A program made the translations under genes and the position numbers. DNA of 32,000 nt from Geotalea daltonii FRC-32 (GTDB taxonomy: Bacteria; Desulfobacterota; Desulfuromonadia; Geobacterales; Geobacteraceae): the NCBI RefSeq assembly GCF_000022265.1, contig NC_011979.1, positions 2,400,001 to 2,432,000 of the forward strand, written 5' to 3'. The notes under the pieces were generated by a model, which saw only the letters and a program-made list of their open reading frames with translations, was not told the origin of the DNA and did no database searches. Of this stretch, positions 5,212 through 32,000 are shown piece after piece (the stretch's first letter is position 1; each line of letters starts with the position of its first letter).

Positions 5212-7398
5212 ATGTCAAATAAGCAACCCAGAGGTCAATTAGTGAAACGCTTTCTGCTGCCGTTGCCATTCCTGCTTTTTATTCCCGTGCTTCTCTTTGC
5301 CATGGATTTTCAGATGGTTACTTTCAAGACTGAGAATGCCGGCAAGGTAATTTTTGATCACGATCTTCACTTGAAAAAGCTGGGCAGCAACTGCACCGTT
5401 TGTCATAAATCCATATTTCCCATAACAACAGATGTGCCGCCGGTGACAATGGCCGAGATGGAGCAAGGGAAATCCTGCGGTGCCTGTCATAACAAAACCA
5501 AGGCATTCGGTCTTAATGAATGCGTCAAATGCCACTTGGTCAAGGAAGTACCGATTCAGATCCCCCAGTTCGGCACCATCGTTTTCAGTCACAACTTCCA
5601 TCTCGGCATGTATGGTTGTGGCGATTGTCACAACAAGCTTTTTAAGCCGGCACCAGGCAACCCGCATATTTCCATGCGCCAAATGGAGCAAGGGGCGTCG
5701 TGCGGAGCCTGCCACGATGGGAATACTGCCTTCACAGTCAAGGAAAATTGCACCAAATGCCACGCAGTTAAGGATATTGCCTTTACTGCCGATGCCCTTT
5801 TCAGCCATAAATTCCATCTGGAAATGTACAAATGCGCCGATTGCCACAGCAAACTTTTTGTTGCCGGTCCTGAAAGCAAGCGCCATTCCATGCGTGACAT
5901 GGAACAGGGAAACTCCTGTGGCGGCTGCCATGAAGGCAGTACCGCTTTCAGCGTCAAAGGGGATTGCGGCAAATGCCATACGGCCACAAAGGACATCCCG
6001 TTCAAGGCGACCGACGCACTTTTCAGCCACAAGTTCCATCTGGGTATCTATCGCTGCAACGACTGTCATAGCGGTTTATTTGTCGGCGGCGCCGGCAGCA
6101 AGCGGTATACCATGGCGGACATGGCCAAGCTGAAATCATGCGGCGCCTGCCATGAGGGAGATGTGGCATTTACCGTCAACGCCAACTGCGGCAGGTGTCA
6201 TAAAAGCACAAAAGATATAACCTTCGACATACCGGACATAGGTTCAGTTGCTTTCAGTCATGAAATACATCTGGGCATGTATAAATGCGACGACTGCCAT
6301 AACCAGGTTTTTGCCACCGGGGTGTCACGTAAAAGCTTCATCATGGCAGAGATGGAAAAAGGCAAATCATGTGGGGCTTGCCATGACGGGAAGAGTGCTT
6401 TTACTGCCTCGGCTAACTGCGGGAAATGCCATCCGGTCAAAGACATTACCTTTACCGACGACGCCCGTTTCAGCCACACAAAGCACCTGGATATGTACAA
6501 ATGCGCCGACTGCCATAGCAAATTGTTTGTTGCCGGACCTGACAACAAGCGGCGGTCCATGGCAGATATGGAAAAGGGGCTATCTTGCGGGGCCTGCCAT
6601 GAAGGGAATACCGGTTTCTCCGTCAAGGGAGATTGCGATAAGTGCCATAAATCCACCATGGAAATCGCCTTCAATGTGCCGGCAACCGGGGTAACCTATT
6701 TCAGCCACGCATTCCATACCGGCATGTACAAGTGTGCCGATTGTCATAACGGCATTTTTACTACCGGTGCTTCTGCCAAGCGATATACCATGGGCGATAT
6801 GGAGCAGGGTAAGTCCTGCGGCAGCTGCCATGACTCAAAAACCGCCTTTTCGGTCAAGGACGCTTGCCAGAAGTGCCACCCGGTAAAGGAGATCCAGTTC
6901 AAAGAATCAGGTGCGTCGTTCAGTCACAAGTTCCATCTGGGTCTGTATCCGTGTAATGACTGCCACACCAAGCTCTTTATTCCGGGCAAGGGCAACAGGC
7001 GAGTCAGCATGCCTGAAATGGAAAAAGGGAAATCATGCGGTGCCTGTCACGATTCCAGCACGGCCTTTACCGTTACCGGCAGTTGCAATAAATGTCATAA
7101 TGTTACCAAGGCAGTTAAATACGAGCTGCCGGAAAAGACCGGTAGCGTCTTGTTCAGTCATAAGCTGCATCTTTCCAAAGGGTACAATTGCGGCGATTGC
7201 CACAATGGGATTATTCTGGCAGGTGTCGGACGCAAGCCTTTGAAGATGAAGGATATGGAAGAGGGGAAATCTTGCGGCGCTTGCCATGGTGCAGCCATGG
7301 CCTTCAGCGTCAAGGATGCTGCCAGTTGCGGCAGGTGCCACGGCGGGAGAACCGGCGATATCCCTTCATTCCAGGAGGGTAATGCCCCTCAATTTTAA
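5212..7398 (+). CDS. 27-heme cytochrome c built from nine c7-type triheme domains (secreted)
   Basis: 728 aa with 27 CXXCH motifs, counted by hand. Has an N-terminal hydrophobic signal (KRFLLPLPFLLFIPVLLFA). The start could instead be the GTG at 5242, which follows AGAGG. This is the same architecture as the Geobacter sulfurreducens c7-polymer cytochromes (the 27-heme member is GSU2210, as I recall). Confidence 0.95.
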   Translation: MSNKQPRGQLVKRFLLPLPFLLFIPVLLFAMDFQMVTFKTENAGKVIFDHDLHLKKLGSNCTVCHKSIFPITTDVPPVTMAEMEQGKSCGACHNKTKAFGLNECVKCHLVKEVPIQIPQFGTIVFSHNFHLGMYGCGDCHNKLFKPAPGNPHISMRQMEQGASCGACHDGNTAFTVKENCTKCHAVKDIAFTADALFSHKFHLEMYKCADCHSKLFVAGPESKRHSMRDMEQGNSCGGCHEGSTAFSVKGDCGKCHTATKDIPFKATDALFSHKFHLGIYRCNDCHSGLFVGGAGSKRYTMADMAKLKSCGACHEGDVAFTVNANCGRCHKSTKDITFDIPDIGSVAFSHEIHLGMYKCDDCHNQVFATGVSRKSFIMAEMEKGKSCGACHDGKSAFTASANCGKCHPVKDITFTDDARFSHTKHLDMYKCADCHSKLFVAGPDNKRRSMADMEKGLSCGACHEGNTGFSVKGDCDKCHKSTMEIAFNVPATGVTYFSHAFHTGMYKCADCHNGIFTTGASAKRYTMGDMEQGKSCGSCHDSKTAFSVKDACQKCHPVKEIQFKESGASFSHKFHLGLYPCNDCHTKLFIPGKGNRRVSMPEMEKGKSCGACHDSSTAFTVTGSCNKCHNVTKAVKYELPEKTGSVLFSHKLHLSKGYNCGDCHNGIILAGVGRKPLKMKDMEEGKSCGACHGAAMAFSVKDAASCGRCHGGRTGDIPSFQEGNAPQF
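5341..7341 (+). repeat. Nine tandem coding repeats (72-78 codons each) = c7-type triheme modules
   Basis: The first Cys of each CXXCH falls at residues 61/89/104, 136/164/180, 208/236/252, 282/310/326, 359/387/403, 431/459/475, 508/536/552, 581/609/625 and 660/688/706. The unit is F-x-H-x2-H ... CxxCH ... M-x2-ME-x-G-x-SCGxCH ... CxxCH. Modules 3 and 6 share long near-identical DNA: atgtacaaatgcgccgattgccacagcaaactttttgttgccgg at 5824 versus atgtacaaatgcgccgactgccatagcaaattgtttgttgccgg at 6493. Confidence 0.9.
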
Positions 7399-23476: not shown

Positions 23477-23887
23477 TTACCCGTTCTGACTGCTTAGCCT
23501 GAACCGTTCAATTATCTTTAGCCGGTAATCGACGATTTCTTTTCTCAAAGAGGCAAGCTGTGCCATTTTCTCGTCAACTTTATTAATGTGCTGATCAAGA
23601 ATCTCAATCAGGCGCGGGATCATTTTGTCAGTTTGTTTCGCGTCGCCATATGCGGAATAGAGATCCTGCATTTCCCTTATGGTAAGCCCCAGCTCCTTCA
23701 ACTTCAGGATGAATTTTATTCTCCTGACGTAGTAGGGGGTAAATCCCCTGGTGGCACCATCCTGTCGCTGGACCGATTCGATTATCCCCACTTCTTCCCA
23801 ATAACGCAGGGTTCTGGTCGTCAGGCCAAATGTTTTTGCCAAGTCACCTATTGATTCTGTTTCTTCGCCTTCTTTAAGTTCGCTCAT
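23477..23887 (-). CDS. MerR-family transcriptional regulator
   Basis: 136 aa. N-terminal wHTH (IGDLAKTFGLTTRTLRYWEEVGII) followed by a coiled-coil dimerisation helix. No metal-binding Cys residues. It is divergent from an acyl-CoA dehydrogenase, an arrangement reminiscent of LiuR-type regulators. Confidence 0.88.
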   Translation of the reverse strand: MSELKEGEETESIGDLAKTFGLTTRTLRYWEEVGIIESVQRQDGATRGFTPYYVRRIKFILKLKELGLTIREMQDLYSAYGDAKQTDKMIPRLIEILDQHINKVDEKMAQLASLRKEIVDYRLKIIERFRLSSQNG

Positions 23888-23897
23888 TTATCTTACC

Positions 23898-23907
23898 TTT
23901 ACGTAAA
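23898..23907. promoter_or_regulatory. Perfect 10-bp palindrome TTTACGTAAA in the merR leader (candidate operator)
   Basis: It lies 11 nt upstream of the merR start codon. It shares the ACGTAA core with the tandem AAACGT repeats at 24016-24029. Confidence 0.4.
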
Positions 23908-24008
23908 TGCATACCTTTTAGACCATGCGTCTGAATTTGTCAACTACTGGTTGGCTGAATTGATAATAAAGATAAATTTGATATTATATAAATGTGTTTT
24001 ATTTATAG

Positions 24009-24037
24009 TTGACATAAACGTAAACGTAATATATTTT
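24009..24037 (+). promoter_or_regulatory. Candidate promoter of ACAD1 with tandem AAACGT repeats in the spacer
   Basis: TTGACA (24009-24014), a 17-nt spacer, then TATTTT (24032-24037). The spacer contains AAACGTAAACGTAA (24016-24029). MerR-type regulators characteristically bind within the -35/-10 spacer. Confidence 0.35.
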
Positions 24038-24143
24038 CGCTGCATTAGTCATCTCCCCAAGAGGTGATCTATGACGGGGGCAGGAACTTTGACTGAAAAT
24101 CGCCGCTGCCGGGGGTTGTTTCTAAGAATTTATGGAGGGCAAT

Positions 24144-25283
24144 ATGGATTTCGAGTTGAGTCAGGACCACAAAGTATTGCAGAGCGCTGTTCGTGACTTC
24201 GTCGAGAAAGAGATAAAGCCGATCGCCATGCAGATCGACGAGGAGCACATGATTCCTGAAAGCCTGGTCAGGAAGATGGGGGTGATGGGTTTTCTCGGCA
24301 GCTATCTTCCCGATGAGTACGGCGGCGCCGGCCTTGACATGCTGTCCTACTCCATCCTCGTGGAAGAGGTGTCGAAGGCCTGCGGCTCCAGCGGTGTTCT
24401 CATCTCGGCTCATACTTCTCTTGCCTGCGGCCCGATTTTTACCTTTGGTACTGAGGAGCAGAAGAAGAAATGGCTGCCGGCCTTGAATATGGGGCAGGTC
24501 ATTGGCTGTTTCCTTCTGACCGAGCCTGATGCGGGAAGCGATGCAGGCGCTATTGCCACTACCTATAAGCATGACGGGGACGACTTCGTCATCAACGGCT
24601 CAAAAATATTCATTACCAACGGGGGATACAAAGGAACCGGCGTTCTTTTTGCTACCTCGGACAAAAGCCTCAAGCACAAGGGCGTATCTGCCTTTATCAT
24701 CGATCTCCAGTCCCCAGGGGTCGAGATCCTCAAGAATGAGAAGAAGCTTGGTATCCGCGGCAGCTATACAACTGCTTTCGCTCTGGATAATGTGCGAATA
24801 CCGGCGGCGAACCTGCTCGGCCAGGAAGGGGAGGGGTTCAAGATAGCCATGGATACCCTGAATGGGGGCCGCATCGGCATTGCCTCCCAGGCACTGGGCA
24901 TTGCTGAGGGCGCCTTCGAACGGGCACTTGCCTACTCCAAGGAGCGCAAGCAGTTTGGGGCTCCCATTTCTGATCTGCAGGCAATCCAGTTCAAGCTGGC
25001 CGACATGTATGCCCGGATCGAGACGAGTAAACTGATGACTTACAAGGCTGCCTGTCTCAAAGACAAGAAGAAGAACTACACAATGGAATCTGCCATGTGC
25101 AAGATGCTCGCTTCCGAGGCAGCCACGTACGTCACCAAGGAGGCGATCCAGATCCACGGCGGCTATGGTTTCATCGTTGATTATGAGGTGGAACGGATGT
25201 ACAGGGATGCCAAGATCACCGAGATTTACGAGGGGACAAATGAGGTGCAGAGAGTGGTGATCTCAAAATTACTGCTTTCTTAG
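24144..25283 (+). CDS. Acyl-CoA dehydrogenase, short/medium-chain (butyryl-CoA dehydrogenase-like), called ACAD1 here
   Basis: 379 aa counted from the ATG at 24144, which lies 5 nt after GGAGG (the track start is 24132). Starts MDFELSQDH, with LTEPDAGSD and FITNG motifs and the catalytic-base motif ITEIYEGTNEVQR. Confidence 0.93.
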   Translation: MDFELSQDHKVLQSAVRDFVEKEIKPIAMQIDEEHMIPESLVRKMGVMGFLGSYLPDEYGGAGLDMLSYSILVEEVSKACGSSGVLISAHTSLACGPIFTFGTEEQKKKWLPALNMGQVIGCFLLTEPDAGSDAGAIATTYKHDGDDFVINGSKIFITNGGYKGTGVLFATSDKSLKHKGVSAFIIDLQSPGVEILKNEKKLGIRGSYTTAFALDNVRIPAANLLGQEGEGFKIAMDTLNGGRIGIASQALGIAEGAFERALAYSKERKQFGAPISDLQAIQFKLADMYARIETSKLMTYKAACLKDKKKNYTMESAMCKMLASEAATYVTKEAIQIHGGYGFIVDYEVERMYRDAKITEIYEGTNEVQRVVISKLLLS

Positions 25284-25372: not shown

Positions 25373-26068
25373 TCAGAACCAGCAGTTTCCGTCTATGCCG
25401 GCAATAATCTCTCCCGGCGAGCGTTCGACCGTAAGCTTCCTGGCAGGAACATCCAGGTAATAGGTGAGATAATATGCAAGCCTTGCGTTGCTCAAGATAG
25501 ATTCTTTGAAAACGACGATATTACTTCCCTCACATCGCGCAGATCTTGCCAGAAGGCCCGGGTGTCCCTCTTTCTGCAATCTCTTGCCAATCTGCCGGGT
25601 AAAAGCATAGTCATTGGCCAGCAGTTGCGGGTATTCTTCACATTTGCCGGTTAAGTCACACAGTACGGCGTTACACGATACCCAATATACCGCCCTTTCC
25701 CGAATAACCACCCCATCCTGACCCTCGATGGCCAGCTCCGTTTTCAACATGTGGTAAGCTGTTTCGTAAATGGTCGTTTCACTCTCCAGTGCCCCGTACC
25801 ACGTGCCATAAGTACCATCTCCGAAGCGGGAGTGCATGAATGGCTGTGTTTCGAAAGGATATCCGATCGCCGTCGAATAGGAAAACCCGCGGTTGATGAA
25901 TCCGGCAGGCAATGTTTTTTTAACATGAGCCTCAACATGAGCGGCTATGGCCGATAGCTCAGCATCTCCACCCGTCAGGTCGTCAAACAGGTCCTGGGAT
26001 TCCCGCAGAGAGACAATGTTTCTGAATATGTCCTGGGCGATTTCACGGGCCACATCAAATAGCGGCAT
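25373..26068 (-). CDS. RES-domain toxin
   Basis: 231 aa. The R/E/S signature is in HSRFGDGTYGTWYGALESETTIYE and LLARSARCEGSNIVVF. The start overlaps the antitoxin stop (ATGTAATG on the minus strand). Confidence 0.85.
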   Translation of the reverse strand: MPLFDVAREIAQDIFRNIVSLRESQDLFDDLTGGDAELSAIAAHVEAHVKKTLPAGFINRGFSYSTAIGYPFETQPFMHSRFGDGTYGTWYGALESETTIYETAYHMLKTELAIEGQDGVVIRERAVYWVSCNAVLCDLTGKCEEYPQLLANDYAFTRQIGKRLQKEGHPGLLARSARCEGSNIVVFKESILSNARLAYYLTYYLDVPARKLTVERSPGEIIAGIDGNCWF

Positions 26069-26475
26069 TACATTCCCCTGACAAGATCGAGATATCGGGA
26101 TACCTTTGCAATACCTATGATTCCTTCATCGAGCATTAGATCGAGAGGCTTCATGTTGTTGAATGCCAGGTTACGCCGTGTCACCCAGGAATACCGCAGT
26201 TCCTCATTTTGCGGGTATAGAAGGCGCAAGGCCTTGTGAATCGCCAATAACCATCCCACTCGATCCTGCACATCCCGTGAAGGAGGCAATGGCTCCCCCC
26301 TGCGGTATTTGGACAGTAATGACCTGCTTGTTTCGCTCAACCCCAAGAGGTTTAGCTGGTCGGATGTTGAGATGTCCCAGAGATCGAACAGCCGGGTGAT
26401 TAGCTTGGCCATCTTTCCCCTTGCTTCAGGAACCGATAAATCAACCCTATGGTTGTCCAGCGCAGCTTGTGGCAT
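26068..26475 (-). CDS. Xre/MbcA/ParS-type antitoxin (DUF2384 C-terminal toxin-binding domain)
   Basis: C-terminus is WVTRRNLAFNNMKPLDLMLDEGIIGIAKVSRYLDLV. I place the start at the ATG at 26475, preceded by GGGGGA. The track TTG start at 26511 falls inside the promoter/operator. Confidence 0.8.
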   Translation of the reverse strand: MPQAALDNHRVDLSVPEARGKMAKLITRLFDLWDISTSDQLNLLGLSETSRSLLSKYRRGEPLPPSRDVQDRVGWLLAIHKALRLLYPQNEELRYSWVTRRNLAFNNMKPLDLMLDEGIIGIAKVSRYLDLVRGM

Positions 26476-26500
26476 GCCGTCCCCCTTCGTCTTTTGTTTA

Positions 26501-26529
26501 AGTATAAACAAAATTTATTTATACTTCAA
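26501..26529 (-). promoter_or_regulatory. Toxin-antitoxin promoter with overlapping inverted-repeat operator
   Basis: The minus strand reads TTGAAG (26529-26524), a 17-nt spacer, then TATACT (26506-26501). A perfect 9-bp inverted repeat AAGTATAAA-N9-TTTATACTT (26500-26508 / 26518-26526) covers both hexamers. Confidence 0.65.
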
Positions 26530-26664: not shown

Positions 26665-28311
26665 TCAGTCCATCCCCAGGCGGTTCATTTTTTTATAGAG
26701 AGCGGTGCGATGAATTCCGAGCATGCGGGCGGCGAGGGCTCGATTACCCCCGGCAGCCTGCAGGGCAGATTCAATCGCGATACGTTCAGCTTTATACAGC
26801 TGCTCTTCAAGCGTGCCAGAGACTGCTGCATTAAGCCCTTTGTGGAGGGTTGGCGGTAAATGGTGCGGCTCGATGGTCAATCCTTGAGCTTTCCAGACCA
26901 TCTGGCGCATGAGGCTGCGCAACTCCCGCACATTGCCCGGCCAGTTGTGGGACATGAGCGCGTCGGTTGCTGCCGGGGAGAGCTTCGGCGTGGGGAGACG
27001 CTCGCGGCGGGATATTTCCGCGAGAAAGTGCCTGGCTAGAAAGGGGATATCTTCGGGGCGTGACCGCAGGGGCGGGAGCTCAATGGGAAATTCGTTGATG
27101 CGGTAGTAGAGATCGCTACGGAACTTGCCGTTATTGACGTTGGTGCCCAGATCGCGGTTGGTGGCGGCTACCAGGCGGAAATCCACAGGTATCGGCGCCG
27201 TGCCCCCCAGACGGTCGATCTTGCGGTCTTCGAGCACCCGCAAAAGTTTGGCCTGGCTGTCCAGGGGGAGTTCTCCCACCTCGTCGAGGAAAAGGGTGCC
27301 GCCGTTAGCCAGTTCGAATTTCCCCGGTTTTCCTCTCTTCTTTGCCCCGCTGAAAGCCCCCTCCTCGTAACCGAACAGCTCCGATTCTATCAGGTCGCGG
27401 GGGATGGCGCCGCAGTTGATGGCAATGAAGGGGCCTTTCCTTCTGGCTGAACCTTCATGAAGTGCCTGGGCAAACAGCTCCTTGCCGGTGCCGCTCTCTC
27501 CCAGAATCAGCACCGTGGCGGAGGAATCGGCAATGCGGCGCGCCTGGTCCATCAGGGCCAGCATGGCCGGATTTTTCGTGAGGATGTTGTCGAAAGAGCA
27601 GCGGTGTCTGCGCATCTCATCCAACAGGGTCTCATAGCGTTCCACCTGCAGCTCCATGGCCCGCACCCGCCCGGCCAGTTCTTCAACCTGTTCGGTGCTT
27701 TTGAAGAGGATTCTGCCGAAGGCGCCGATCACCCGATTTTCGCGCCTGATGGGAAGGTTCACCGTCACCTTGGTCTGGCCGCGCAGATCCACCACCTGGG
27801 CCCGTTCGGGCACACCGGTGCGAGCCACGTCAGACAGGTGGCTTTTGGGAGCGATATCCGTGAGATCCAGCCCCATCCCGCTGCCGCTTTTGAGCCCCAG
27901 CCAGCGTTCATTGGATGAGCTGAGCAGCGTCACCTTCCCTGCAGTATCGACTACCGTCAGCCCCTCATAGGGGTTATCCAGCACCAGCCGGACCATTTCC
28001 TCGTTCAGGGTCGATTTGCCGTAGGGTCCAAGAATCTGGTCTGCAGCATGTACCGGTCGGATGACCAGCACCTCGACCTGTTTATTGCCCTCGGCCTGGA
28101 CGAACCATTCTTTTCCGAAAAATATCCATTCCCCCTGTTTCAGCTCGCCCAGTTCCCGGGGAAGTGGGGCACCCTCCCTGATATCCAGATCTGCAGTGTC
28201 GAAGAAATCTTTGTTCAGAGCGGCAACGTGCCCGTCTTTAGCCAAAAGGATAATGCCGCATCGGCAGTAGGCTGCCTTTCGGAGCAGTGTATGGGTGGAA
28301 ACTGTATCCAT
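26665..28311 (-). CDS. Sigma-54-dependent transcriptional activator (N-terminal sensor + PAS + AAA+ + Fis-type HTH)
   Basis: 548 aa. Walker A (GESGTGKE), a GAFTGA-type loop (EGAFSGA), Walker B (GTLFLDEVGE) and a C-terminal HTH (NRALAARMLGIHRTALYKKMNRLG). I do not recognise the first 90 aa or so. Confidence 0.93.
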   Translation of the reverse strand: MDTVSTHTLLRKAAYCRCGIILLAKDGHVAALNKDFFDTADLDIREGAPLPRELGELKQGEWIFFGKEWFVQAEGNKQVEVLVIRPVHAADQILGPYGKSTLNEEMVRLVLDNPYEGLTVVDTAGKVTLLSSSNERWLGLKSGSGMGLDLTDIAPKSHLSDVARTGVPERAQVVDLRGQTKVTVNLPIRRENRVIGAFGRILFKSTEQVEELAGRVRAMELQVERYETLLDEMRRHRCSFDNILTKNPAMLALMDQARRIADSSATVLILGESGTGKELFAQALHEGSARRKGPFIAINCGAIPRDLIESELFGYEEGAFSGAKKRGKPGKFELANGGTLFLDEVGELPLDSQAKLLRVLEDRKIDRLGGTAPIPVDFRLVAATNRDLGTNVNNGKFRSDLYYRINEFPIELPPLRSRPEDIPFLARHFLAEISRRERLPTPKLSPAATDALMSHNWPGNVRELRSLMRQMVWKAQGLTIEPHHLPPTLHKGLNAAVSGTLEEQLYKAERIAIESALQAAGGNRALAARMLGIHRTALYKKMNRLGMD

Positions 28312-28420
28312 AGATCAACATGTCTCCTTTCAGATACACCTCGCGCAGGAGTGGGTGGTGGCGTGGCGAGGTGGGGCTGTATACGTTTGTCTACATGTTT
28401 ATATTTATAGCACATGGTGT

Positions 28421-28432
28421 TATACATGTATA
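28421..28432. promoter_or_regulatory. Perfect 12-bp palindrome TATACATGTATA (candidate enhancer/UAS for the EBP)
   Basis: It lies about 60-70 bp upstream of the -24 element. A second ACATGT core at 28393-28398 is 31 bp away, roughly three helical turns. Confidence 0.35.
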
Positions 28433-28490
28433 TGACAAAATAGCATATTTATTTCAATATGTTATGCAATTATATTTTACGGGATCTGAT

Positions 28491-28506
28491 TGGCACATAC
28501 TGTGTA
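28491..28506 (+). promoter_or_regulatory. Candidate sigma-54 (-24/-12) promoter of the ACAD2 operon
   Basis: TGGCAC-atact-GTGTA compared with the consensus TGGCAC-N5-TTGCA/T. The -24 element is perfect and the spacing correct, but the -12 keeps only the G of GC. It lies 45 nt upstream of the ATG at 28551 and is divergent from a sigma-54 EBP. Confidence 0.4.
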
Positions 28507-28550
28507 ATAGAAAACTGTTATATGGATTATGAAACTAAGGAGGAACCAAG

Positions 28551-29693
28551 ATGTTTACCCATAATGAAGAGATCCGCATTGCCGCGGACACCATCCGCCA
28601 GGCGGCGCGGGAGCGAATAGCTCCCCTGGCCGCCTCCATCGACGCCACCGGTGAGCTCAACCAAGAGGTGACAACCCTGCTGTGGGACCTGGGGCTCATG
28701 ACCCTGGTTTTTCCCGCCGAACATGGGGGCGCCGAGCAGAGCCAGGGAACGCTGCTCTGTACGGCGGTGGAGGAGATCGCCCGCCACTGCGCCTCGTCGG
28801 CACTGATGTTGATTATTCAGGCCGTGGGCAGCTATCCCCTGCTCCATGGCGGCAGCAAGGAACTCCTCGACCGGGTGCTGCCGCGAATAGTTGCCGAGCG
28901 AGAACTGGCCGCCTACCTGGTTTCCGAACCCGGCGCAGGCTCTGATGTTGGGAACATCCGCACCACAGCTGTCAGGGACGGCAATCACTATGTCATTTCC
29001 GGCACCAAGTGCTTCTCCACCAACGGCCCCATTGCCTCTTTCTATACGGTGCTGGCTCGAACCTCGGAGAACGGCCGTAACGGCCTCACCTTCTTCCTGG
29101 TGGAACGGGACACCCCGGGCTTTTCCGTGGGCAAGATCGAGAAGAAACTGGGGCAGCGGGGCTCCAAGACATCCGAAATGTACCTGGACGAAGTGCGGGT
29201 GCCGGTGGGGAACCTGCTCGGCGAGGAAAACAAGGGCTTCAATCTGGCCATGAAGGACTTCGACATGTCACGTCCCGCCATCGGCGCCCAGGCCCTGGGG
29301 ATTGCCGAGGGAGCATTCGACCAGATGCTCCGCCATGCCAGGGAGAGAAAAACCTTCGGCCAGGCCCTCTGCGAGCACCAGATGATCCAGCAGATTATCG
29401 CCGACAGCGCCACGGCCATCGAGGCGGCCCGCGGGCTGGTCTACCGGTCTGCAGCTCTCTACGACCAGGGGCAGCGCAACACCAAGCTCGCCTCCATGGC
29501 CAAGCTCTTCGCCTCCGACGCCGCCATGAAGATCACCACCGACGCCATCCAGGTCTTCGGCGGCTACGGCTACATGCAGGACTACCCCGTGGAGCGGATG
29601 TTCCGGGATGCCAAGCTCACCCAGATCTTTGAGGGGGCAAACCAGATCCAGCGGCTGGTCATTGCCAGGGAAATACTGAAAGAGACCGCCTGA
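28551..29693 (+). CDS. Acyl-CoA dehydrogenase family protein, called ACAD2 here
   Basis: 380 aa. RBS is AAGGAGG. Has VSEPGAGSD and FSTNG motifs and the catalytic-base motif [13 protein letters not shown]. Confidence 0.9.
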
Positions 29694-29960: not shown

Positions 29961-31103
29961 ATGAAACACTTGACCGAAGAACAGAGACTAACCCTGGAAA
30001 TGGTGCGCGATGTCGCAATCCGGGAAATCGCCCCAAGGGCCCAGGAACTGGACGAGAAATCACTCTTCCCCGAACATGCCCGTGACCTTTTTGCCCAGCT
30101 CGGGCTTTTGAACCCGCTTCTGCCGGCTGCTTACGGGGGCACCGAAATGGGCATAGCCACCGTCGTCCTTATTCTGGAGGAAATCTCCCGGGTCTGCGCG
30201 TCCACCGCCCTTTTATTGATCGGCCAGTTCGACGGCATGCTCCCCATCATCCACGGGGGAAGTCCGGCCCTGAAAGAAAAATTCCTCCCCCGCTTCAGCG
30301 GCGAATCGAAGCTTTTGACCGCCCTGGGGGCAACGGAGCCAAATGCCGGCTCGGACCTGCTGAACATGAAGACCCGCGCCGAGCGTAAGGGGGACAAATA
30401 CGTCATCAACGGCCAGAAATGCTTTATCACCAACGGCTCCGTTGCCGATATCACCGTCGTCTATGCCTATACCGACCCGTCCAAGGGGGCGAAGGGGATC
30501 AGCGCCTTTGTCGTGGAGCGGGGCACACCGGGCCTCATCTATGGCCGTGACGAAGTGAAGATGGGGATGCGCGGATCCATCAACTCCGAACTCTTCTTCG
30601 AAAACATGGAAATCCCCGCCGAGAACCTGATCGGCGAAGAGGGGACCGGCTTTGCCAACCTCATGCAGACCCTTTCGGTGAACCGCATCTTCTGCGCCGC
30701 CCAGGCGGTTGGCATTGCCCAGGGTGCCCTGGAGATCGCCATGAACCATGCCCGTGAACGGGTCCAGTTCGGCAATACCATCGCCCACCTGACCCCGATC
30801 CAGTTCATGATCGCCGATATGGCCACCGCCGTGGAGGCTTCGCGGCTCTTGACGAGAAAGGCCGCCCAGCTGGTGGACGAGCACGATAAAAAGGCCGTCG
30901 TCTTCGGGGGAATGGCCAAGACCTTCGCCAGCGACACCGCCATGCAGGTAACCACCGATGCGGTCCAGGTGCTGGGGGGCTCCGGCTACATGAAGGAGAA
31001 CAACGTGGAGCGCATGATGCGCGATGCCAAGCTTACCCAGATCTACACCGGCACCAACCAGATCACCCGCATGGTCACCGGCAGGGCCTTGTTATTCCAG
31101 TAG
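29961..31103 (+). CDS. Atypical acyl-CoA dehydrogenase family protein, called ACAD3 here (no canonical catalytic Glu; Asp91). Candidate cyclohex-1-ene-1-carboxyl-CoA dehydrogenase
   Basis: 380 aa. RBS is AAGGAG. The ACAD fold is clear ([36 protein letters not shown]). The catalytic motif reads YTGTNQITR, with Thr in place of Glu, and residue 91 is Asp (GQFDGML). Confidence refers to the ACAD-family call. The specific function is inference, at about 0.45. Confidence 0.9.
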   Translation: MKHLTEEQRLTLEMVRDVAIREIAPRAQELDEKSLFPEHARDLFAQLGLLNPLLPAAYGGTEMGIATVVLILEEISRVCASTALLLIGQFDGMLPIIHGGSPALKEKFLPRFSGESKLLTALGATEPNAGSDLLNMKTRAERKGDKYVINGQKCFITNGSVADITVVYAYTDPSKGAKGISAFVVERGTPGLIYGRDEVKMGMRGSINSELFFENMEIPAENLIGEEGTGFANLMQTLSVNRIFCAAQAVGIAQGALEIAMNHARERVQFGNTIAHLTPIQFMIADMATAVEASRLLTRKAAQLVDEHDKKAVVFGGMAKTFASDTAMQVTTDAVQVLGGSGYMKENNVERMMRDAKLTQIYTGTNQITRMVTGRALLFQ

Positions 31104-31149: not shown

Positions 31150-32000
31150 ATGCGCAGACTCTTCATATATGTTTTGGCCGCAGGGATGCTGGCAGTTCCT
31201 GCGGCGGCCCAGGAAATTCCCCGGGATGTACCCCAGACCACCTACAATTGCGATTTCGATCCGGCCTGCGAGGTGAGCCCCGGCATTTACGGCAAGATGT
31301 CTTCCCCCGTCAGCAGCAAATTCAAATTGTCCATTGGCGGCTTCGTCAAGCTGGATTACATCTACAACTCGGTCAATCTGGGGTCGGCCAATACTATCGG
31401 CACGGTTGCCACCCTGCAGCCGAACGGCATACCCAAATCCGGTTCTGCCGCAGGCAAACAGGATCAATCCCTGTTCAGCGTCCGCCAGAGCCGCCTCTGG
31501 TTCAAGGCCGACGGACCGCCTCTTTTGGGGGCCAAGACCGGCGCCCTCATCGAGACCGATTTCTTCGGCTCGGGGGGGAGCAGCGCCGAATCGGCAAATA
31601 TGCGGATTCGGCTTGCCTATGGCACCCTCGACTGGACCGATACCCAGTTTCTCTTCGGCCAGTCCTGGGATCTCTTTGCCCCGGCGGCTGCCTCGACCCT
31701 TGACTTCGGCCACGGCCAGACGGCTGGCAATCCTACCACGCCGCGGGTCCCCCAGCTTAGGGTGACCCGGAAGGTTACCCTGGACGACCGGAATTCCCTT
31801 AAGTTGATCGCAGCCCTGCAGAACCCCATTCAGAACACCAACACGGCCAACGGCACCCCCGGAGAGACCTGGGGGGCCAAGCCCAATGTTGCAGGACAGG
31901 CCATGTTCGTCAGCAAGGCTCTGGGGGTCGCCCCCGGTTTCTGGGGGCTGCCCATGAATTCATTCACCGCCGGTCTCTTCGGCCTGTACGGCAACCAGGA
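31150..32000 (+). CDS. Putative outer-membrane porin, 3' end outside the window (absent from the supplied ORF track)
   Basis: I translated this by hand from the ATG at 31150 (AAGGAG lies 9 nt upstream), giving 283 codons with no stop up to the window edge. Signal peptide is MRRLFIYVLAAGMLAVPAAA/QE. Beta-strand motifs follow (FKLSIGGFVKLDYIYN, LFSVRQSRLWFKA, MRIRLAYGTLDW, FLFGQSWDLF) and resemble DcaP/OprO-like porins. Confidence 0.65.
   Translation, partial: MRRLFIYVLAAGMLAVPAAAQEIPRDVPQTTYNCDFDPACEVSPGIYGKMSSPVSSKFKLSIGGFVKLDYIYNSVNLGSANTIGTVATLQPNGIPKSGSAAGKQDQSLFSVRQSRLWFKADGPPLLGAKTGALIETDFFGSGGSSAESANMRIRLAYGTLDWTDTQFLFGQSWDLFAPAAASTLDFGHGQTAGNPTTPRVPQLRVTRKVTLDDRNSLKLIAALQNPIQNTNTANGTPGETWGAKPNVAGQAMFVSKALGVAPGFWGLPMNSFTAGLFGLYGNQ

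What the first reader, a model, noticed from the sequence alone, without database searches (positions are those of the whole stretch)
29961..31103. ACAD3 lacks the catalytic glutamate and carries Asp91, the signature of 1,3-diene-forming cyclohex-1-ene-1-carboxyl-CoA dehydrogenase
Seen: ACAD1 (ITEIYEGTNEVQR) and ACAD2 ([13 protein letters not shown]) keep the Glu that acts as catalytic base in MCAD/SCAD-type enzymes. ACAD3 reads LTQIYTGTNQITR, with Thr at that position. The alternative base position used by isovaleryl-CoA/long-chain enzymes (here TLSVNRIF) has no Glu either. Counting from the ATG at 29961, residue 91 is Asp (GQFDGMLP), where ACAD1 has SAHTSLA and ACAD2 IQAVGSY. Known, as I recall the structural study of the G. 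metallireducens enzyme: 1,4-elimination is explained by a catalytic aspartate (D91) at C3 together with loss of the catalytic glutamate at C1. Inference: ACAD3 is such an enzyme or a relative with non-canonical regiochemistry. If its substrate differs, this would be a new member of a very small class.
Basis: partly seen in the sequence, partly recalled or inferred. Interest (0 to 1): 0.7.

Follow-up and report, generated by a model that had tools for sequence, protein, structure and literature searches.

The report
Known cyclohexene-carboxyl-CoA dehydrogenase ortholog

Summary
ORF 29961..31103 (+) encodes a 380-aa acyl-CoA dehydrogenase with Asp91, Gly92, Asn241 and Thr363, and no Glu at either known catalytic-base position. 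The two upstream paralogs keep the Glu.

The interpretation also holds. The protein is 84% identical over 379 residues, without gaps, to Gmet_3306 of Geobacter metallireducens (PDB 7P98/7P9A/7P9X). [quoted passage not shown] D91, G92, N241 and T363 sit at the same residue numbers. Eight of nine ring-lining residues and all five constriction residues are identical.

It lies in the conserved cyclohexane-carboxylate cluster: a divergent sigma-54 activator, cyclohexanecarboxyl-CoA dehydrogenase, Ch1CoA dehydrogenase, an outer-membrane-like protein and a CoA transferase.

The exact sequence is WP_012647274.1 / UniProt B9M9H3 of Geotalea daltonii FRC-32. [quoted passage not shown] The one local peculiarity is a Geotalea-specific A88G/T90F pair next to the catalytic Asp. 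Its effect is unknown.

Verdict: already known, low interest.

The parts
29961..31103 (+). [quoted passage not shown] It equals WP_012647274.1 / ACM20545.1 of Geotalea daltonii FRC-32.
   Evidence: 84% identity with 0 gaps to Gmet_3306 / PDB 7P98. Exact-sequence look-up. Pfam Acyl-CoA_dh_N/M/1.
30231..30236 (+). Codons for Asp91 (catalytic base acting at C3) and the invariant Gly92.
   Evidence: Roles are taken from PMC9293079: D91N abolishes activity.
30222..30230 (+). Codons 88-90 (Gly-Gln-Phe). G88 replaces the ring-lining A88, and F90 replaces T90 of the crystallised enzyme. The pair is specific to the Geotalea lineage.
   Evidence: only 8 sequences (the window protein and 7 hits, all at least 90% identical to it) have GQFD. 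All others have A at 88 and S, A or T (one I, one C) at 90.
30681..30683 (+). Asn241, which fills the place of the isovaleryl-CoA-dehydrogenase-type catalytic Glu.
   Evidence: PMC9293079.
31047..31049 (+). Thr363, which fills the place of the MCAD/SCAD-type catalytic Glu.
   Evidence: PMC9293079.
28551..29693 (+). It is a canonical 1,2-dehydrogenase with Glu retained and catalyses the step before ACAD3.
   Evidence: Passes the NCBIfam equivalog NF043006 (704.5 bits, cut-off 650). Named so in RefSeq and UniProt. 89% identical to the G. hydrogenophilus cluster gene.
26665..28311 (-). Divergently transcribed sigma-54-dependent activator, 548 aa. Probable regulator of the cluster.
   Evidence: Pfam Sigma54_activat, AAA_lid_14 and HTH_8. 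In the same position, at 78% and 67% identity, in G. hydrogenophilus and C. bremense.
28491..28506 (+). Candidate sigma-54 promoter TGGCAC-ATACT-GTGTA, 45 nt upstream of the ChCoA dehydrogenase start. The -12 element is degenerate.
   Evidence: 2 mismatches, and the number of such hits in the whole window is not above chance. TTGGCA(C/T) and a downstream TG are conserved among three species in an otherwise diverged spacer. This part is inferred, not shown.
31150..32000 (+). N-terminal 283 residues of a 448-aa protein with a signal-peptide-like start and no Pfam or NCBIfam match. Putative outer-membrane uptake channel. It runs off the window.
   Evidence: An ortholog at about 80% identity lies in the same cluster in G. 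hydrogenophilus, and one at 77-79% in C. bremense. The function is an inference.

Best explanation
[quoted passage not shown] Asp91 takes the pro-S proton from ring carbon C3, and FAD N5 takes a hydride from C6. This is a formal 1,4-elimination that gives cyclohexa-1,5-diene-1-carboxyl-CoA. The usual 1,2-dehydrogenation is switched off because Thr363 and Asn241 occupy the two positions where other family members place the catalytic Glu. In the cell it is the third step of anaerobic cyclohexane-carboxylate degradation. The CoA transferase encoded just downstream of the window activates the acid. ACAD2 makes the 1-ene. ACAD3 makes the 1,5-diene, which enters the benzoyl-CoA lower pathway (BamR/Q/A) encoded elsewhere in the genome. 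Electrons presumably go to ETF. Shown here: sequence, residue identities, orthology, synteny and existing annotation. Inferred from the G. metallireducens work: the chemistry and the physiological role.
For: (1) The best PDB match is 7P98/7P9A/7P9X at E=2e-212, aligned 1-379 to 1-379. BLASTP to Gmet_3306 gives 320/379 identities with 0 gaps. (2) D91, G92, N241 and T363 are identical. Ring-lining residues L84, I87, D91, T157, N241, Q248, Y362 and T363 are identical, with A88 changed to G. Constriction residues G130, L133, L238, R242 and G364 are all identical. Residue roles come from PMC9293079. (3) The signature is invariant in 122 of 122 sequences aligned at 71% identity or more, and it drops out sharply below about 52% identity. 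(4) Synteny with the Geobacter hydrogenophilus locus, whose enzyme is 98% identical to Gmet_3306: sigma-54 regulator 78%, ChCoA dehydrogenase 89%, Ch1CoA dehydrogenase 85.5%, CoA transferase 90%, 448-aa protein 80%. (5) ACAD2 passes the NCBIfam equivalog for cyclohexane-1-carbonyl-CoA dehydrogenase. [quoted passage not shown] (7) G. daltonii has and expresses benzoyl-CoA pathway genes, including bamQ and ETF bamOP (PMC11960108). The three-enzyme pathway in G. metallireducens is summarised in PMC9795900.
Against: No enzyme assay or growth test on cyclohexane carboxylate exists for G. daltonii in the searchable literature: no paper holds both 'daltonii' and 'cyclohexane'. One ring-lining residue differs (A88G), and the residue before the catalytic Asp is a bulky Phe instead of Thr. 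The published mutants show the active site is finely tuned. The enoyl-CoA-hydratase-family gene that sits between the dehydrogenase and the CoA transferase in G. hydrogenophilus is missing from the G. daltonii cluster. No NCBIfam model reaches its cut-off for ACAD3 (best 376 bits against 650), so the database name rests on similarity, not on a dedicated HMM.
Confidence: 0.9

Rival explanations
1. The chemistry is the same (Asp91-driven, no 1,2-dehydrogenation), but the Geotalea-specific G88/F90 pair reshapes the ring pocket. The preferred substrate (for example a methyl- or otherwise substituted cyclohexene-carboxyl-CoA), or the balance between C3,C6 (diene) and C3,C4 (aromatising) dehydrogenation, would then differ from the G. 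metallireducens enzyme.
For: A88 is one of the nine residues lining the ring, and residue 90 directly precedes the catalytic base. GQFD occurs only in 8 Geotalea-lineage sequences, while the other 114 aligned sequences have A at 88 and a smaller residue (S, A or T; one I, one C) at 90. Single substitutions T363V and N241D shift regioselectivity and Km markedly. The host degrades toluene and benzene as well as benzoate.
Against: The other eight ring-lining residues and all constriction residues are unchanged. The cluster partners are 78-90% identical to those of the cyclohexane-carboxylate cluster. Residue 90 is not listed among pocket residues in the structure paper. Side-chain geometry could not be examined with the tools available.
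Confidence: 0.07
2. The enzyme works mainly in the reductive direction, as in Syntrophus aciditrophicus fermentation. It would reduce cyclohexa-1,5-diene-1-carboxyl-CoA toward cyclohexane carboxylate as an electron sink.
For: The family was first described in S. aciditrophicus, where it serves fermentative cyclohexane-carboxylate formation. The reaction is reversible in principle.
Against: The host is a metal-respiring Geobacterales organism with external electron acceptors; multihaem cytochromes are encoded in the same window. The cluster carries an uptake-type outer-membrane-like protein and an activating CoA transferase under a dedicated activator, as in the catabolic G. metallireducens pathway.
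Confidence: 0.02
3. It is an ordinary 1,2-dehydrogenating short-chain acyl-CoA dehydrogenase, or an inactive paralog, and the missing Glu is incidental.
For: Overall similarity to butyryl-CoA dehydrogenases is high, at E about 1e-95.
Against: No Glu at either base position. The replacement residues are the same as in the characterised enzyme, which has less than 0.1 nmol/min/mg 1,2-dehydrogenase activity. The signature is strictly conserved over a large clade, which argues for purifying selection on a working active site.
Confidence: 0.01

Closest known systems
[quoted passage not shown]
   Same: Same length of 380 aa. 84% identity without gaps. D91, G92, N241 and T363 are identical, as are 8 of 9 ring-lining and 5 of 5 constriction residues. 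The cluster neighbours are the same: sigma-54 activator, ChCoA dehydrogenase, CoA transferase and the 448-aa protein.
   Different: A88G and T90F next to the catalytic Asp. There are 59 substitutions in all. The cluster lacks the enoyl-CoA-hydratase-family gene and instead has the 448-aa gene plus a 106-aa gene between the dehydrogenase and the CoA transferase. The G. daltonii enzyme has not been assayed.
Cyclohexanecarboxyl-CoA dehydrogenase (NCBIfam NF043006; the window's ACAD2, 28551..29693)
   Same: Same ACAD subfamily, about 45% identity, and adjacent in the same operon.
   Different: It keeps the catalytic Glu (IFEGANQ) and has Val where ACAD3 has Asp91. It performs the canonical 1,2-dehydrogenation. 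ACAD3 scores only 376 bits against this model's 650-bit cut-off.
Butyryl-CoA / short-chain acyl-CoA dehydrogenases (e.g. PDB 4L1F, 1BUC, 1JQI)
   Same: Same fold and FAD site. E about 1e-95 to 1e-80 over the full length.
   Different: They have the catalytic Glu at the position of Thr363 and a hydrophobic residue in place of Asp91.
D91/T363 acyl-CoA dehydrogenases with Ser, Ala or Gly at position 241, from MAGs labelled Syntrophaceae, Desulfomonilaceae, Desulfobacteraceae and other Thermodesulfobacteriota (loci L004-L025)
   Same: Asp91-Gly92 and loss of Glu363. Many are also preceded by a ChCoA-dehydrogenase homolog.
   Different: 52-69% identity, with no Asn241. They carry only generic database names. 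The window protein belongs to the Asn241 group, like the crystallised enzyme.

Membership tests
[quoted passage not shown] | Acyl-CoA dehydrogenase fold (N-terminal helical, middle beta and C-terminal helical domains) | tested here: met
   Pfam PF02771, PF02770 and PF00441 on the product. Full-length matches to many ACAD structures.
[quoted passage not shown] | Catalytic Asp at position 91, followed by the invariant Gly92 | tested here: met
   D91 and G92 lie in an ungapped alignment with Gmet_3306 / 7P98. Definition from PMC9293079.
[quoted passage not shown] | No Glu at the MCAD/SCAD base position (Thr363 instead) | tested here: met
   QIYTGTNQITR is identical to the crystallised enzyme.
[quoted passage not shown] | No Glu at the isovaleryl/long-chain base position (Asn241 instead) | tested here: met
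   N241 is present and invariant in 122 of 122 sequences aligned at 71% identity or more.
[quoted passage not shown] | Ring pocket (L84, I87, A88, D91, T157, N241, Q248, Y362, T363) and constriction (G130, L133, L238, R242, G364) | tested here: met
   13 of 14 residues are identical. The single change is A88G.
[quoted passage not shown] | Shortened segment before Asp91 relative to other ACADs (stated in PMC9293079) | tested here: inconclusive
   In my alignment ACAD1 has one extra residue around this loop, but ACAD2 does not. The paper's Figure S2 is not held.
[quoted passage not shown] | Orthology to a biochemically characterised member | tested here: met
   84% identity over 379 aa to Gmet_3306. 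The next-best PDB hit drops to 324 bits from 708.
[quoted passage not shown] | Genomic association with ChCoA dehydrogenase and an activating CoA transferase | tested here: met
   ACAD2 lies directly upstream and passes NF043006. A 437-aa AcetylCoA_hydro-type CoA transferase lies 1.9 kb downstream, 90% identical to the one in the G. hydrogenophilus cluster. Assigning that transferase to Gmet_3304 rests on my recollection of Kung et al. 2014, a paper that is not held.
[quoted passage not shown] | Catalyses C3,C6-dehydrogenation of Ch1CoA and no 1,2-dehydrogenation; FAD-containing homotetramer | not testable with these tools
   This needs purified protein. It is known only for the G. metallireducens and S. 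aciditrophicus enzymes.
Cyclohexane-1-carbonyl-CoA dehydrogenase (NCBIfam NF043006) | Score at or above the curated 650-bit cut-off; catalytic Glu present | tested here: not met
   ACAD3 scores 376.2 bits and has Thr at the Glu position. It is not a member of this family. ACAD2 is.

The most novel reading that the evidence does not exclude
The Geotalea-specific Gly88/Phe90 pair flanking the catalytic Asp91 retunes the pocket. The G. daltonii enzyme would then prefer a substituted cyclohexene-carboxyl-CoA, or show a different C3,C6 to C3,C4 product ratio, making it a natural selectivity variant of the 1,3-diene-forming dehydrogenase.
Probability: 0.07. Interest if true: 0.35.

Novelty: already known. 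Interest (0 to 1): 0.1.

Why it matters
It matters little beyond correct annotation. The result confirms that Geotalea daltonii FRC-32, a subsurface degrader of aromatic compounds, carries the complete upper pathway for anaerobic cyclohexane-carboxylate degradation. It also shows that the Asp91 / no-Glu signature reliably marks this unusual 1,4-dehydrogenating enzyme. For biocatalysis, the natural A88G/T90F variant and the more distant Ser241 subclade are ready-made sequence variants of an enzyme whose selectivity responds to single substitutions. That is a modest lead, not a discovery.

Tried and rejected
(1) NCBIfam scan of ACAD3: no model reaches its cut-off (best is NF043006 at 376 against 650 bits). 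The RefSeq name therefore cannot be traced to a dedicated HMM in this library. I rejected filing ACAD3 under NF043006.

(2) The two primary biochemical papers (PMC4187703, PMC3697644) are not held, and the structure paper has no stored supplement. The G. metallireducens gene-cluster figure and the Figure S2 alignment could not be read. I substituted the 98%-identical G. hydrogenophilus locus.

Its counts are lower bounds.

(4) Sigma-54 consensus search: 14 hits with up to 2 mismatches against 20 expected by chance. The promoter call therefore rests only on position and three-species conservation, and it stays tentative.

(5) A cluster look-up of four Ser241-subclade proteins, meant to see whether the characterised S. 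aciditrophicus enzyme belongs there, returned only generic or no names. This is unresolved.

(6) A search for the enoyl-CoA-hydratase gene of the Geobacter cluster in the window, L001 and L003 found no hit.

(7) Structure prediction and fold search were not run. At 84% ungapped identity to a 1.5-2.0 Å crystal structure they would add nothing, and the tools return no coordinates for inspecting the Phe90 side chain.

Full report
**1. Observation**

The ORF at 29961..31103 (+) is intact. It has an ATG start, an AAGGAG ribosome-binding site 7 nt upstream, a TAG stop, and encodes 380 aa.

Counting from that ATG:
- Residue 91 is Asp (GQFDGMLP).
- Residue 363 is Thr (QIYTGTNQITR).
- Residue 241 is Asn (TLSVNRIF).

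The two upstream paralogs keep the Glu. ACAD1 (24132..25283) reads IYEGTNEVQR and ACAD2 (28551..29693) reads [10 protein letters not shown]. In a multiple alignment they place Ser and Val opposite Asp91.

**2. Identity**

A search of all PDB chain sequences gives one outstanding match: 7P98/7P9A/7P9X at E=2e-212 and 708 bits. It aligns residues 1-379 to 1-379 without a gap. The next hit is an ordinary butyryl-CoA-type dehydrogenase at 324 bits.

BLASTP against Gmet_3306 gives 320/379 identities (84%), 93% positives and no gaps. Because there are no gaps, residue numbers are the same in both proteins. Asp91 and Thr363 of the window protein are therefore the homologs of the catalytic Asp91 and the Glu-replacing Thr363.

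**3. What the paper establishes**

- D91 is the only candidate base. It is positioned at the pro-S hydrogen of C3.
- FAD N5 faces C6.
- D91N abolishes activity.
- N241 and T363 fill the spaces of the two alternative catalytic glutamates.
- The wild-type enzyme has no 1,2-dehydrogenase activity.
- G92 is invariant.
- The ring pocket is lined by L84, I87, A88, D91, T157, N241, Q248, Y362 and T363.
- G130, L133, L238, R242 and G364 close the chamber.

In the window protein 13 of these 14 residues, and G92, are identical. The exception is A88G. In addition, T90 is Phe.

**4. The exact sequence is already public and named**

It is ACM20545.1 / WP_012647274.1 / UniProt B9M9H3 of Geotalea (formerly Geobacter) daltonii FRC-32. 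[quoted passage not shown] ACAD2 is WP_012647273.1, cyclohexane-1-carbonyl-CoA dehydrogenase.

ACAD2 passes the NCBIfam equivalog NF043006 (704.5 against 650 bits). ACAD3 passes no NCBIfam model, with a best score of 376 bits against the same model.

**5. Family-wide test of the signature**

Among the best 120 database clusters, all at least 71% identical to the query, every full-length sequence has D91-G92-N241-T363. Together with the query and 7P98 that is 122 of 122. [quoted passage not shown] They come from Geobacter, Geotalea, Desulfoprunum, Desulfocastanea, Desulforhabdus, Desulfococcus and other anaerobes.

In one-genome-per-species contigs:
- All 23 loci at 52% identity or more have Asp91, and none has Glu at 363: T363 in 20, A363 in one, two truncated.
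- Of the 57 loci at 51% identity or less, 52 have Glu363 with no aligned Asp91. Four carry an Asp at position 91 beside a kept Glu363, three of them across an alignment gap. One (L038) has Gly at 363 and Met at 91.

The signature therefore marks a clade, and the window protein sits well inside it. The class is small in assayed enzymes (two) but not in sequences.

**6. Context**

Upstream and divergent is a sigma-54-dependent activator at 26665..28311 (−). ACAD2 and ACAD3 follow. A 448-aa protein with a signal-peptide-like N-terminus and no family match starts at 31150 and runs off the window.

An identical public contig shows the continuation: a 106-aa protein, a 437-aa AcetylCoA_hydro-type CoA transferase, a CoA-transferase-GNAT fusion and a deacetylase.

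The G. hydrogenophilus locus has an enzyme 98% identical to Gmet_3306. It holds the same set: regulator (78% identical), ChCoA dehydrogenase (89%), Ch1CoA dehydrogenase (85.5%), CoA transferase (90%) and the 448-aa protein (80%).

The slot between the dehydrogenase and the transferase varies:
- An enoyl-CoA-hydratase-family gene in G. hydrogenophilus.
- A thiolase in Citrifermentans bremense.
- The 448-aa gene plus the 106-aa gene in G. daltonii.

This matches the three-enzyme pathway reported for G. metallireducens: CoA transferase, then a 1,2-dehydrogenase, then a 1,4-dehydrogenase, feeding cyclohexa-1,5-diene-1-carboxyl-CoA to BamR/Q/A (PMC9795900). G. daltonii carries and expresses bam genes and ETF elsewhere in its genome (PMC11960108).

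A possible sigma-54 promoter (TGGCAC-N5-GTGTA, 28491-28506) lies 45 nt upstream of ACAD2. Its TTGGCA(C/T) block and a downstream TG are conserved in three species, but the -12 element is degenerate. Consensus hits in the whole window are not above chance. I treat this promoter as inferred.

**7. Mechanism**

Shown here: orthology, residue identity, synteny and prior annotation.

Inferred from the G. metallireducens work: Asp91 abstracts the C3 proton while FAD takes the C6 hydride, giving the conjugated 1,5-diene. 1,2-dehydrogenation is prevented because no carboxylate reaches C1. I put this at 0.9.

The main residual doubt is quantitative, not qualitative. The Geotalea lineage alone has Gly88 and Phe90 next to the base (8 sequences, all at least 90% identical to the window protein). 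Single substitutions are known to shift regioselectivity and Km.

**8. Novelty and verdict**

The gene is nonetheless a close, already named ortholog of a crystallised enzyme, in its known operon. It is already known and of low interest (0.1).

The most novel reading still open is a lineage-specific selectivity variant. I give it a probability of about 0.07, with modest interest if true.

No publication in the searchable library connects G. daltonii with cyclohexane carboxylate. A growth test and an assay would be new data but not a new kind of thing.

Noticed in passing
L004-L025 (e.g. L011:8001-9143, L008:8001-9149): A second subclade of Asp91/Thr363 dehydrogenases, 52-69% identical to the window protein, comes from MAGs labelled Syntrophaceae, Desulfomonilaceae, Desulfobacteraceae and other Thermodesulfobacteriota. 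It has Ser, Ala or Gly instead of Asn241. The structure paper calls N241 invariant and shows that it tunes regioselectivity. These proteins carry only generic database names. Whether the characterised S. aciditrophicus enzyme is of this type was not resolved.
   Followed up: partly
L017-L025 (Desulfobacteraceae and Desulfatiglans MAGs): The most distant Asp91/no-Glu members (52-60% identity) have no ChCoA-dehydrogenase homolog next to them, unlike most closer members. They may act on a different cyclic enoyl-CoA.
   Followed up: no
L038:96-1226 (Syntrophaceae MAG): A 45%-identical ACAD has Gly at the Glu363 position (QVFGGVNQ) and Met, not Asp, at position 91. This is another ACAD without the usual base, of unknown chemistry.
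   Followed up: no
window 25373-26511 (- strand): A RES-domain toxin (231 aa) and an Xre/MbcA/ParS-type antitoxin (147 aa) form a pair wedged between ACAD1 and the sigma-54 regulator of the cyclohexane-carboxylate cluster.
   Followed up: no
window 23477-25283: ACAD1 (383 aa, Glu retained) is paired divergently with a MerR-family regulator. It reaches no NCBIfam cut-off (best is acryloyl-CoA reductase AcrC at 469 against 640 bits). Its sequence with the start at 24132 is not in the protein collection, so the public annotation probably uses the internal Met five codons downstream.
   Followed up: partly
window 31150-32000 and L001:1263-2938: A 448-aa protein with a signal-peptide-like start and no Pfam or NCBIfam match is conserved in the cluster in three genera (77-80% identity). 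It is possibly a substrate-specific outer-membrane channel. In G. daltonii a 106-aa protein with a lipoprotein-like start follows it.
   Followed up: partly
L001:4435-6285: Downstream of the cluster's CoA transferase lies a second AcetylCoA_hydro-type CoA transferase fused to a GNAT acetyltransferase domain (616 aa). A histone-deacetylase-family gene follows it.
   Followed up: no
window 5212-7398 (+): A 728-aa multihaem cytochrome is built of nine cytochrome-c7-type units. This is typical of Geobacterales and unrelated to the finding.
   Followed up: no
window 28312-28550: Besides the TTGGCAC block, the regulator-ChDH spacer keeps two short conserved stretches in the three species aligned: GTCTACA upstream, and AATAGAAAA..GTTATA downstream of the putative promoter (ATATAAAG..GTTATA in G. 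hydrogenophilus). They may be regulator-binding or leader elements.
   Followed up: no
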